From: a virus
Taxonomy: Duplodnaviria; Caudoviricetes
Strand: one strand, 5' to 3'
Length of the DNA: 64,000 nucleotides
IMG/VR virus record: IMGVR_UViG_3300024259_000011
Position 1 is the first letter of the stretch; each line of letters opens with the position of its first letter. Shown here one piece after another: positions 62,491 to 64,000 of the stretch. The notes beneath the pieces are model-generated. The model saw nothing but the letters and a program-made list of their open reading frames with translations, was not told the DNA's origin and searched no databases. Position numbers and translations under genes: made by a program.

Positions 62491-62707
62491 TTACGACCTC
62501 CAAATCATGCGCCAGCATCCTGCGGGTTGCTCTACCAGATGTGCGACCGATGAATTTAACGGTGTGAATGGAGAACTGCCCGTTGGCGGGGCAATCCTCG
62601 TCGATCAGGTCTGGCGAGGTTTCTTCAACCTTAATGATCAGAGCCATCGAGCCCTTGGGAACGCCAATCATGGCGCGACTTGTGCAGATTAAATCACCTA
62701 CTTTCAT
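62483..62707 (-). CDS. Small KVGD-type beta-barrel protein
   Basis: MKVGDLIC...ALII...VKF...DLEVVS. Confidence 0.7.
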   Translation of the reverse strand: MKVGDLICTSRAMIGVPKGSMALIIKVEETSPDLIDEDCPANGQFSIHTVKFIGRTSGRATRRMLAHDLEVVSG

Positions 62708-62861
62708 TTACCAACTCCATAAAGCCGCTACACTCCACAATGGGCTTGCTCCTGTTGTTCCACAGCACCCACACATCACCAGATTTAGCCCATCGCTTTA
62801 TGCAAGGCGCAGTAACAATGCCCAATATACCTTTGTGTCTTACTAAATCACCGACCTTCAT
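62694..62861 (-). CDS. Small KVGD-type beta-barrel protein (55 aa)
   Basis: Hand-translated MKVGDLVRHKGILGIVT...VWVLW...MELVNESR. Confidence 0.7.
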   Translation of the reverse strand: MKVGDLVRHKGILGIVTAPCIKRWAKSGDVWVLWNNRSKPIVECSGFMELVNESR

Positions 62862-62932
62862 GCTGATAGCTCCGCGACAAGACCAAGTAGACCGATGGTC
62901 GTTGAAATAATCATAAAAGTAGCAATAGTCAT
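62858..62932 (-). CDS. 24-aa hydrophobic peptide MTIATFMIISTTIGLLGLVAELSA
   Basis: First ORF after element copy 6; ATGA overlap with the next gene. Confidence 0.55.
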   Translation of the reverse strand: MTIATFMIISTTIGLLGLVAELSA

Positions 62933-62959
62933 AGTTTCCCTCTCTTTGTTGCTTACTTA

Positions 62960-62989
62960 TTAGACGTATGAGGCTTTCATTTTATTCAA
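62960..62989 (-). promoter_or_regulatory. TTGAAT-N17-CGTCTAA element, copy 6
   Basis: Conserved boxes. Confidence 0.7.
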
Positions 62990-63006
62990 TGAAAAGGGAA
63001 AAAAGA

Positions 63007-63222
63007 TCAACTTTTTTTGGGCTGAGCGGATGAAAGAACCTTCACATCCATAGTGCGGCAAGGTGAAACCAAGTTCTGCCCGTATGAGCCAAACCACAGC
63101 ACCTCGATGCCGGAGTAGCTATAAAATCCGGGCTCAAACAGGGACATGACCAGCCCCAACACATGAGGCTCGGTCTGAATCCAAATCACAAGATCGCCAA
63201 CGTTAATGTTTGGGTTGTTCAT
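63007..63222 (-). CDS. Small KVGD-type beta-barrel protein
   Basis: INVGDLVIW...GLVM...IEVLW...VKVLS. Confidence 0.7.
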   Translation of the reverse strand: MNNPNINVGDLVIWIQTEPHVLGLVMSLFEPGFYSYSGIEVLWFGSYGQNLVSPCRTMDVKVLSSAQPKKS

Positions 63223-63340
63223 CCTCTATAAATAGTGAGTTCCAGTGCTTCCACGGGAAAACTGCCAGCGCGACAATGCACATAAGCGGCACAAGCCACA
63301 GTCCATTATCCAACAATACAATTTGCCATTCACTCAACAT
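63203..63340 (-). CDS. 45-aa membrane peptide
   Basis: Hand-translated MLSEWQIVLLDNGLWLVPLMCIVALAVFPW...; TAATG coupling. Confidence 0.55.
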   Translation of the reverse strand: MLSEWQIVLLDNGLWLVPLMCIVALAVFPWKHWNSLFIEDEQPKH

Positions 63341-63564
63341 TATTCACTCTCCTCTACATAAATCAAATTTGTCTGAATCGTTCGCGGCTTCGACTCACCG
63401 TACCACAACACTTTGGCGCATATATAGTACTCTTCTTCTACCATGCCGCCGTCTTTCCATCGGTCGCGTTGGTCACGGAACCAGACCATACCCAAGAACA
63501 CGCCACGCGAGTAGTTCGTCGATGGGTGTGCGTTCCTGTTTCTCACTACATCACCGACTTGCAT
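63340..63564 (-). CDS. Small KVGD-type beta-barrel protein
   Basis: MQVGDVVRN...GVF...AKVLW after GGAGG. Confidence 0.7.
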   Translation of the reverse strand: MQVGDVVRNRNAHPSTNYSRGVFLGMVWFRDQRDRWKDGGMVEEEYYICAKVLWYGESKPRTIQTNLIYVEESE

Positions 63565-63707
63565 ACTGCCTCCAAATATAGTGAGTGCATTGTGGACACC
63601 CGACCGTGCATTAGAATGTTCCAATAATCGTAATGCTCTCTTGAAACAACAGTACACAGCACTGGCTCTGAGCCAAACGTACAGTACATCAGATCACCGA
63701 CTTGCAT
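63546..63707 (-). CDS. Small KVGD-type protein (53 aa)
   Basis: Hand-translated MQVGDLMYCTFGSEPVLCTVV... after GAGG. Confidence 0.6.
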   Translation of the reverse strand: MQVGDLMYCTFGSEPVLCTVVSREHYDYWNILMHGRVSTMHSLYLEAVCKSVM

Positions 63708-63913
63708 GCTGTCACCTCTGTCATGTGTTTTAACAAGCCCCGATCAATGAGCGTGGACTTTATCGCTCCTACCTTCAAGATCCTGTGATTCTCGATGATC
63801 AGCCCATCATCCCGGTGAATAAAATCCTCACCGAGATATATCGCTAGCGTTCCATCTAAGCCGCTGCGGGACAACGCCCAGCCTTCAAACTTATACAACT
63901 TACCTACTTTCAT
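63689..63913 (-). CDS. Small KVG-type beta-barrel protein
   Basis: MKVGKLYKF...AIYLG; ATGA coupling. Confidence 0.6.
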   Translation of the reverse strand: MKVGKLYKFEGWALSRSGLDGTLAIYLGEDFIHRDDGLIIENHRILKVGAIKSTLIDRGLLKHMTEVTACKSVI

Positions 63914-63984
63914 GCGTTCACGAATCCGATGATGCCAGCGCATCCAGCGACTACGAACATTCCAAGTACAATAACGATTTCCAT
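63910..63984 (-). CDS. 24-aa hydrophobic peptide MEIVIVLGMFVVAGCAGIIGFVNA
   Basis: AAAGAGAGAGG leader; ATGA overlap with the next gene. Confidence 0.55.
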   Translation of the reverse strand: MEIVIVLGMFVVAGCAGIIGFVNA

Positions 63985-64000
63985 GTGAACCTCTCTCTTT

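What the first reader, a model, noticed from the sequence alone, without database searches (positions are those of the whole stretch)
62694..64000. Repeated cassette: purine leader, exactly 24-aa membrane peptide, ATGA overlap, MKVG protein
Seen twice: 62858-62932 (MTIATFMIISTTIGLLGLVAELSA) then MKVGDLV, and 63910-63984 (MEIVIVLGMFVVAGCAGIIGFVNA) then MKVGKLY. Both peptides end GCA-TGA overlapping ATG-AAG/AAA-GT and follow an AAAGAGAG leader. The peptide sequences differ but length, hydrophobicity and junction are kept. Inference: either a translational-coupling leader device or a membrane-peptide/soluble-partner pair (toxin-antitoxin-like or superinfection exclusion) that has been duplicated and diversified.
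Basis: partly seen in the sequence, partly recalled or inferred. Interest (0 to 1): 0.6.

Follow-up and report, generated by a model that had tools for sequence, protein, structure and literature searches.

The report
Orphan membrane mini-genes behind phage promoters
Two tiny, strongly water-repelling 24-residue genes sit directly behind copies of an uncultured marine phage's repeated early promoter and run into the next gene. They are strain-specific one-offs, not a conserved two-gene device, so the finding is mostly ordinary.

Summary
The sequence facts hold. All genes lie on the minus strand. Two 24-codon hydrophobic ORFs (62858-62932, 63910-63984) each follow an AAAGAGAGRG leader and overlap an MKVG gene by ATGA.

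The shared features are generic:
- The leader is the ribosome-site end of a repeated ~80-nt promoter-like element, with seven copies that also drive ordinary genes.
- The ATGA overlap is built into the ATGAAR start of the large SH3/KOW-like "MKVGDLV" mini-gene family. It is used at 58 of 362 family starts.
- The equal length looks coincidental; the peptide at the same position in the closest relative has 25 residues.

The two peptides share no DNA or protein similarity with each other. They have no homologue in 108 related loci apart from 100%-identical contigs. Orthologues of both partner genes in dozens of related phages follow other genes, or a promoter with their own ribosome site.

What survives is this. 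The ORFs are probably translated, given the optimal ribosome-site spacing. Their hydrophobicity is not random. Such mini-ORFs are enriched in gaps across this lineage (14/89 sense against 0/49 antisense). pepB probably passes ribosomes to K1, which has no ribosome site of its own.

This scan had already described the SH3-like arrays and their junction elsewhere in this genome.

The parts
63985..64000 (-). 3' end (purine leader/SD) of the seventh copy of the repeated promoter-like element; the rest lies beyond the window
   Evidence: AAAGAGAGAG at 63991-64000. The full element is seen in the 100%-identical contig L020, about 2872-2959.
63910..63984 (-). pepB, a 24-aa hydrophobic mini-ORF, first ORF behind element copy 7
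   Evidence: GRAVY 2.15; ATG 6 nt after the purine box. No homologue outside identical contigs.
63689..63913 (-). K1, a 74-aa SH3/KOW-like barrel of a conserved subfamily (invariant YLGEDFIHRDDG-type core); start overlaps the pepB stop (ATGA); no SD of its own
   Evidence: 64 clusters of orthologues. AF2 pLDDT 86; fold matches to Spt5/NusG KOW at TM about 0.5; no SD-like 4-mer.
63546..63707 (-). K2, a 53-aa member of the MKVGD/MQVGD mini-gene family
63340..63564 (-). K3, a 74-aa family member
   Evidence: 48% identical orthologue in L001.
63203..63340 (-). TM45, a conserved 45-aa single-pass membrane mini-protein that overlaps the start of K4
   Evidence: 54-79% identical homologues in many related loci, next to different neighbours.
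63007..63222 (-). K4, a 71-aa family member with a short N-terminal extension
62933..63017 (-). Repeated promoter-like element, copy 6 (A/T hairpin-like tract, TTGAATAAAA box, CGTCTAA box, purine SD)
   Evidence: About 90% identical to the L001 copy, with homology ending right after the SD.
62858..62932 (-). pepA, a 24-aa hydrophobic mini-ORF, first ORF behind element copy 6
   Evidence: GRAVY 1.70; ATG 5 nt after the purine box. No homologue. An unrelated 25-aa hydrophobic ORF sits at the same position in L001.
62694..62861 (-). K5, a 55-aa SH3-like barrel; start overlaps the pepA stop (ATGA); has a GGAG 8 nt upstream
   Evidence: AF2 pLDDT 91; KOW/PWWP/KorB-C matches, TM 0.65-0.78.
62483..62707 (-). 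K6, a 74-aa family member joined to K5 by the +11 overlap junction
57718..62152 (-). Five further copies of the same promoter-like element (boxes at 57718-57747, 59350-59379, 59444-59473, 61244-61272, 62095-62124). They drive ordinary genes: a 266-aa ORF, an AAA ATPase, a 13-aa stub, a VWA/DUF2201 protein and a 238-aa zinc-knuckle protein.

Best explanation
pepA and pepB are two unrelated, strain-specific 'ORFan' mini-genes in the hyperplastic early-type region of an uncultured marine phage. Each lies directly behind a copy of the phage's repeated promoter-plus-ribosome-site element.

Shown:
- The element places an ATG 5-9 nt after its purine SD in every copy, whatever gene follows.
- The peptide ORFs run exactly to the next gene's start.
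- They are strongly hydrophobic and have no relatives.
- Their partners have many orthologues that live without them.

Inferred:
- The ORFs are translated into single-helix membrane peptides early in infection.
- Ribosomes terminating at the ATGA overlap re-initiate on the next gene. This matters for K1, which has no SD, and little for K5, which has GGAG.
- The resemblance between the two 'cassettes' is a by-product of two generic systems: the repeated regulatory element, and the stereotyped ATGAARGTNGGTGAT start of the SH3/KOW-like mini-gene family, which contains a stop in both other frames.

My guess is that the peptides are fast-turnover accessory membrane factors, for example in host takeover or exclusion of other phages. 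That function is untested.
For: Regulatory element:
- Seven copies with a constant SD-ATG spacing, five of them driving ordinary genes or a stub.
- Between the window and its closest relative L001 the element is about 90% identical, and similarity stops right after the SD. A different 25-aa hydrophobic ORF follows there.

Hydrophobicity:
- GRAVY 1.70 and 2.15, against 3.4% of small ORFs reaching 1.5.
- In 357 inter-ORF gaps of related loci, 14 of 89 SD-preceded sense mini-ORFs are strongly hydrophobic against 0 of 49 antisense ones (p=0.002). The antisense strand is the T-richer one.

Junction:
- Among 362 non-redundant family starts the upstream gene stops at +11 in 209, at +1 (ATGA) in 58 and at +7 in 43.

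No conserved pairing:
-.

Translation:
- K1 is one of only two operon-first family genes (of 24) without an SD-like 4-mer.
- The pepB leader is less structured than shuffled sequence, z=+1.98, as expected for an open translation start.
Against: - No direct evidence of transcription or translation.
- The five contigs that carry the peptides are 100% identical over 3.3 kb, so no substitution pattern can show selection.
- At 24 aa, no homology, fold or complex test is possible.
- In the pepB region the K1 frame is also open upstream (the 84-aa form picked by gene callers). A longer K1 cannot be strictly excluded, although all orthologues start at MKVG/MQVG.
- The element does not match the simple sigma-70 consensus scan, so its promoter activity is inferred from position and repetition only.
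Confidence: 0.58

Rival explanations
1. The two ORFs are functionless open leaders. They are spacer DNA left between a recombined promoter element and the first family gene. At most they are translated as a ribosome relay, and the peptide itself does nothing.
For: - No homologues and no variation to show selection.
- Most operon-first family genes need no such ORF.
- A 13-aa hydrophilic stub follows another element copy. A 24-aa hydrophilic open frame bridges two family genes in L020 at 2345..2419. So short bridging frames arise here without being membrane peptides.
Against: - Hydrophobicity this strong is rare among small ORFs (3.4%).
- It recurs at the same position in L001 with an unrelated sequence.
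- The class is enriched on the sense strand across the lineage.
Confidence: 0.27
2. Each peptide and its downstream SH3-like protein form a dedicated two-component module (toxin-antitoxin-like or superinfection exclusion) that was duplicated and diversified.
For: - Adjacency and stop/start overlap in two places.
- A conserved membrane mini-protein (TM45) also precedes a family gene.
Against: - No similarity between the two peptides.
- K1 and K5 orthologues are preceded by other family genes, a SWIM-like zinc protein, TM45 or a bare promoter, never by these peptides.
- TM45 itself changes neighbour between phages: K4, K1 or K5.
- Hydrophobic mini-ORFs precede family genes only at the base rate.
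Confidence: 0.05
3. The mini-ORFs are regulatory leader peptides (attenuation or ribosome-stalling type) or type I toxin genes controlled by an antisense RNA.
For: Short ORF in the 5' leader of an operon, and a size and composition like Ibs/ShoB/TisB-type toxins (my own knowledge of those families).
Against: - No stable or alternative RNA structure in either leader (z=+1.98 and -0.20).
- No Rfam match.
- Opposite-strand promoter-like sites are no more frequent than in shuffles.
- The arrangement is not conserved.
Confidence: 0.04

Closest known systems
PeSL (promoter-early stem-loop) regulatory cassettes with their ORFans in the hyperplastic regions of T4-type phages (Arbiol et al. 2010, PMC2839356; read)
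   Same: - A repeated intergenic motif made of an AT-rich tract, promoter boxes, an SD and the start codon of the next gene.
- Concentrated in a region of small non-essential genes and most often placed right before an ORFan.
- Homology between related phages breaks at the motif.
   Different: - The boxes here (TTGAATAAAA ... CGTCTAA) do not fit the sigma-70 consensus.
- No G/C-rich terminator stem was shown.
- Promoter and terminator activity and mini-circles are untested.
- The ORFans here are far smaller (24 aa) than typical annotated ones.
Small single-helix hydrophobic proteins of bacteria and phages: type I toxins of the Ibs/ShoB/TisB kind, and small phage gene families catalogued by Fremin et al. 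2022 (Cell Rep; cited in PMC12856327; content from my own knowledge)
   Same: A length of 18-35 aa, one hydrophobic helix, missed by gene callers, often lineage-specific.
   Different: No antisense RNA, no toxicity data and no family membership. These two have no homologues at all.
Translationally coupled overlapping genes (ATGA stop/start overlap), a general feature of bacterial and phage operons (established knowledge)
   Same: The stop of the upstream ORF overlaps the start of the downstream gene, and K1 lacks its own SD.
   Different: Here the upstream cistron is only 24 codons long and is dispensable in relatives.
The SH3/KOW-like mini-gene arrays with a dual-coding junction, already described by this scan elsewhere in the same genome (e1-5335539, e1-5335540)
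   Same: K1-K6 belong to that family and use its +1/+7/+11 junctions.
   Different: The present finding adds only the promoter-proximal hydrophobic mini-ORFs.

Membership tests
PeSL-type regulatory cassette plus ORFan (T4-type hyperplastic region) | Repeated intergenic motif ending in the SD and start codon of the downstream gene | tested here: met
   Seven copies, SD-ATG spacing 5-9 nt.
PeSL-type regulatory cassette plus ORFan (T4-type hyperplastic region) | Sigma-70 consensus promoter boxes | tested here: not met
   The consensus scan does not call any of the copies. The boxes read TTGAATAAAA-N13-14-(A)CGTCTAA.
PeSL-type regulatory cassette plus ORFan (T4-type hyperplastic region) | Stable stem-loop acting as terminator within the motif | tested here: inconclusive
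   Only an A/T-rich inverted repeat around GATC upstream of the first box is visible. The terminator scan finds none at the copies.
PeSL-type regulatory cassette plus ORFan (T4-type hyperplastic region) | Sits before lineage-specific ORFans, and homology between relatives breaks at the motif | tested here: met
   pepA and pepB have no homologues. Identity is about 90% in the element and lost after the SD against L001.
Toxin-antitoxin-like or exclusion pair (membrane peptide plus soluble partner) | Conserved adjacency of the two components across relatives | tested here: not met
Toxin-antitoxin-like or exclusion pair (membrane peptide plus soluble partner) | Toxicity of one component neutralised by the other | not testable with these tools
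   Needs expression experiments. The complex predictor asks for chains of 30 residues or more, so it was not used.
Type I toxin-antitoxin | Antisense or overlapping regulatory RNA | tested here: inconclusive
   No Rfam hit. Opposite-strand promoter-like sites are at shuffle level. No RNA data.
Obligatory translational-coupling leader ORF | Downstream gene lacks its own ribosome site and start overlaps the leader's stop | tested here: met
   Met for pepB->K1 (no SD-like 4-mer). Only half met for pepA->K5, which has GGAG 8 nt upstream.
Obligatory translational-coupling leader ORF | Leader retained wherever the downstream gene is operon-first | tested here: not met
   K1 orthologues sit directly behind promoter plus GAGGAG. 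About 19 of 24 operon-first family genes have no mini-ORF.
SH3/KOW-like small beta-barrel (for K1 and K5) | Five-stranded barrel fold | tested here: met
   AF2 pLDDT 91 and 86. Foldseek TM 0.65-0.78 (K5) and about 0.5 (K1) to Spt5/NusG KOW, PWWP and KorB-C, with E-values only about 0.07-0.1. Profile hits to Spt5 KOW at E=0.005. No Pfam family reaches threshold.

The most novel reading that the evidence does not exclude
This phage lineage keeps a fast-turnover repertoire of unannotated 15-35-residue single-helix membrane peptides as early genes. They are swapped in and out at promoter elements and gene junctions, and they act on the host envelope (takeover, depolarisation or exclusion of competing phages). 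A bolder variant is that a promoter-proximal hydrophobic peptide tethers the translating polycistronic mRNA to the membrane, so that the downstream barrel proteins are made there.
Probability: 0.12. Interest if true: 0.5.

Novelty: new member of a known kind. Interest (0 to 1): 0.25.

Why it matters
Mostly as a caution. Two look-alike "cassettes" can arise when a repeated promoter/ribosome-site element meets a gene family whose start codon context forces a stop in both other frames.

The useful residue is modest:
- This abundant uncultured marine phage group carries many unannotated hydrophobic mini-ORFs below gene-caller limits.
- They sit exactly where related phages exchange genes.
- They would be cheap candidates for tests of early membrane-acting phage peptides.
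- The pepB/K1 pair is a natural case for measuring re-initiation after a 24-codon cistron.

Tried and rejected
- **Cultured phages:** DNA searches (near and distant) found no match. Protein searches gave only remote hits.
- **Whole genome:** none is held for this window. An exact 45-nt pepB probe was absent from IMG/VR.
- **Family libraries:** Pfam and PHROGs gave nothing above threshold for all small proteins, including both peptides.
- **Peptide homologues:** short-query tblastn for pepA, pepB, the 26-aa neighbour and the L001 peptides over 108 loci gave only identical contigs. blastn-short gave nothing.
- **RNA:** folding of both leaders showed no structure. Rfam gave nothing.
- **Complex prediction:** not used, because the peptides are shorter than the 30 residues it asks for and the comparative data already argue against a pair.
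- **Signal-peptide idea:** I considered that the peptides are signal peptides fused to the barrel by frameshifting (all three end in small-x-Ala). I rejected it because there is no slippery site, no positively charged N-region, and orthologous barrels have no such leader.
- **Frame-shifted family remnants:** rejected, because there is no DNA similarity.
- **Fremin 2022:** the paper could not be read.

Full report
**1. What is there**

Every long ORF of the window lies on the minus strand, so the finding must be read there. Searches confirm two 24-codon ORFs: pepA at 62858..62932 and pepB at 63910..63984. Each ends in GCATGA, and the ATG of that motif starts an ORF beginning MKVG: K5 at 62694..62861 and K1 at 63689..63913. 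Each peptide ATG lies 5-6 nt after an AAAGAGAGRG run. The literal observation is correct.

**2. The surroundings**

The stretch 62483-63913 holds six small paralogues (K1-K6) that start MKVGD/MQVGD. It also holds a third small membrane ORF, TM45 (63203..63340), which overlaps the start of K4. None of these hits Pfam or PHROGs.

- With 99 family members collected from related contigs, K5 folds with pLDDT 91 into a five-stranded barrel.
- That barrel resembles Spt5/NusG KOW, PWWP and KorB-C domains (TM 0.65-0.78, weak E-values). Profile hits to Spt5 KOW point the same way.
- K1 belongs to a well conserved subfamily of 64 clusters with an invariant YLGEDFIHRDDG-type core. It is also a KOW/SH3-like barrel.
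- Earlier notes of this scan had already described such arrays and their dual-coding junction elsewhere in the same genome. I re-derived both independently here.

**3. The purine leader is not special to the peptides**

- A roughly 80-nt element (A/T tract with GATC, TTGAATAAAA, about 13 variable bases, (A)CGTCTAA, then the purine run) occurs six times between 57718 and 62989, all on the minus strand and none expected by chance.
- The window ends inside a seventh copy. Contigs L020-L023 and L029, from other samples, are 100% identical to the last 3.3 kb of the window. L020 shows the complete seventh element upstream of pepB.
- In every copy an ATG follows the purine box after 5-9 nt. That ATG belongs to a 266-aa ORF, an AAA ATPase, a VWA/DUF2201 protein, a zinc-knuckle protein, a 13-aa stub, pepA or pepB.
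- The leader is therefore the ribosome-site end of a general regulatory cassette. It resembles the PeSL motifs of T4-type phages, which end in the SD and start codon of the next gene and usually precede ORFans.
- It differs in that its boxes do not fit the sigma-70 consensus, and no G/C-rich stem was found.

**4. The ATGA overlap is forced**

The family start reads ATGAARGTNGGTGAT. It contains TGA at +1 in one alternative frame and TGA at +11 in the other. The ATGCAAGTAGG variant gives TAG at +7. Any upstream ORF must end there unless it is in frame.

Among 362 non-redundant family starts in 112 loci, the upstream gene stops at these positions:

| Stop position | Count |
|---|---|
| +11 | 209 |
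| +1 (ATGA) | 58 |
| +7 | 43 |

The conserved C-terminal Leu-Glu-Val of family members encodes GGAGGT, which is the SD of the next gene. Two peptides sharing the +1 junction is unremarkable.

**5. The two peptides are unrelated orphans**

- Their DNA aligns only at the SD and the junction.
- Short-query tblastn and blastn-short against all non-identical loci and the rest of the window find nothing.
- TM45, by contrast, has 54-79% identical homologues in many loci.
- In L001, the closest relative (82-88% identity in the ATPase and VWA proteins), the element after K4 is about 90% identical, but similarity ends right after the SD.
- There a 25-aa hydrophobic ORF follows, then a 34-aa hydrophobic ORF, then the K6 orthologue. 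K5 is absent.

**6. The pairing is not conserved**

- A metagenome scan with the K1 profile returned 80 loci, and look-ups of the closest K1 orthologues added a few more.
- Of 59 distinct sequence contexts upstream of K1 orthologues, pepB occurs in one, the window's own strain. An unrelated 46-aa ORF with a hydrophobic segment occurs in one other (L064).
- The rest are family genes, a SWIM-like zinc protein, TM45 homologues or promoters.
- K1 orthologues of 84-95% identity sit directly behind TTGACT-17-TATAAT and a GAGGAG site with no mini-ORF.
- K5 orthologues follow K1, the SWIM-like protein or TM45, never pepA.
- Of 24 operon-first family genes, about 19 have their own SD and no mini-ORF.
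- Hydrophobic mini-ORFs are followed by a family gene in 5 of 19 cases, which equals the share of family genes among all ORFs (310/1216).

**7. What survives**

- Hydrophobicity is not random. GRAVY is 1.70 and 2.15, against 3.4% of small ORFs reaching 1.5.
- A 26-aa hydrophobic ORF lies just beyond the window end, at L020 2791..2871.
- In 357 gaps between larger ORFs of the related loci, 14 of 89 SD-preceded sense mini-ORFs are strongly hydrophobic against 0 of 49 on the antisense strand (p=0.002). The antisense strand is the T-richer one, so this control is conservative.
- Together with the optimal SD spacing, this makes translation into small membrane peptides the best reading.
- K1 in this strain lacks any SD-like 4-mer, so it probably depends on ribosomes that finish pepB.
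- The leaders have no significant RNA structure, and no Rfam family matches.

**8. Limits**

There is no sequence variation among the five contigs carrying the peptides. No structure or complex test suits 24-residue peptides. Promoter activity of the element is inferred only. The T4-like nature of the phage and its host come from earlier scan notes that I did not test.

**9. Verdict**

The stretch shows a generic promoter/ribosome-site element, a gene family whose starts force overlapping stops, and two strain-specific hydrophobic ORFan mini-genes of unknown function. They belong to a class that this phage lineage carries in some number. This is a new member of a known kind, and interest is low to moderate.

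Noticed in passing
L020:2791-2871 (about 130-210 nt beyond window position 64000, minus strand): A fourth small hydrophobic ORF (26 aa, GRAVY 1.91). It is ATGA-coupled to the preceding family gene and is the last ORF before the seventh promoter element. No homologues were found.
   Followed up: partly
L020:2345-2419: A third ORF of exactly 24 codons that overlaps an MKVGDLV gene by ATGA, and the preceding gene also by ATGA. It is hydrophilic and A-rich, and may be only an open spacer. 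It shows that the 24-codon length is not tied to membrane peptides.
   Followed up: partly
window 59379-59473 (minus strand): Two copies of the promoter-like element lie 94 nt apart, with only a 13-aa ORF between them whose end runs into the next element's A-tract. This looks like a scar of recombination between elements.
   Followed up: no
window 63203-63340; L001:7930-8064; L042, L062, L066, L036, L046 and others: TM45 is a conserved 44-47-aa single-pass membrane protein with an FPW(K/D)HWN motif. It carries the family's +11 junction at its 3' end and changes neighbour between phages (before K4, K1 or K5).
   Followed up: partly
L109:1680-1763, L111, L112, L028 against window 63985-64000 plus L020:2872-2959: The same gene (K1) is driven by a canonical TTGACT-17-TATAAT promoter in close relatives. 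In this strain it is driven by the TTGAATAAAA...CGTCTAA element, a swap of promoter type at one locus.
   Followed up: no
window 63689-63913 and P0001-P0064: K1 defines a widespread, well conserved subfamily of the barrel mini-proteins (64 clusters at 45-88% identity). Its invariant Tyr-Leu-Gly-x-x-Phe-Ile...Asp-Gly...Ile-Asp-Arg core contrasts with the fast-evolving other paralogues.
   Followed up: partly
L060:1056-1160: A 34-aa ORF starts with the family's MQVGD and continues as a hydrophobic helix, then overlaps the next family gene by ATGA. It may be a chimera made at the junction.
   Followed up: no
L033, L041, L051-L054, L069, L071, L081, L098 (upstream of K1 or K5 orthologues): A roughly 105-116-aa protein with a SWIM-like CxCxGFGWRRKCKH motif ends in the family's ...NESR junction. 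It is shuffled among the barrel genes as if it were one of them.
   Followed up: no
window 26664-26855 (minus strand): A lone member of the MKVGDLV family (63 aa) lies far from the arrays, next to the PhoH-like gene region.
   Followed up: no
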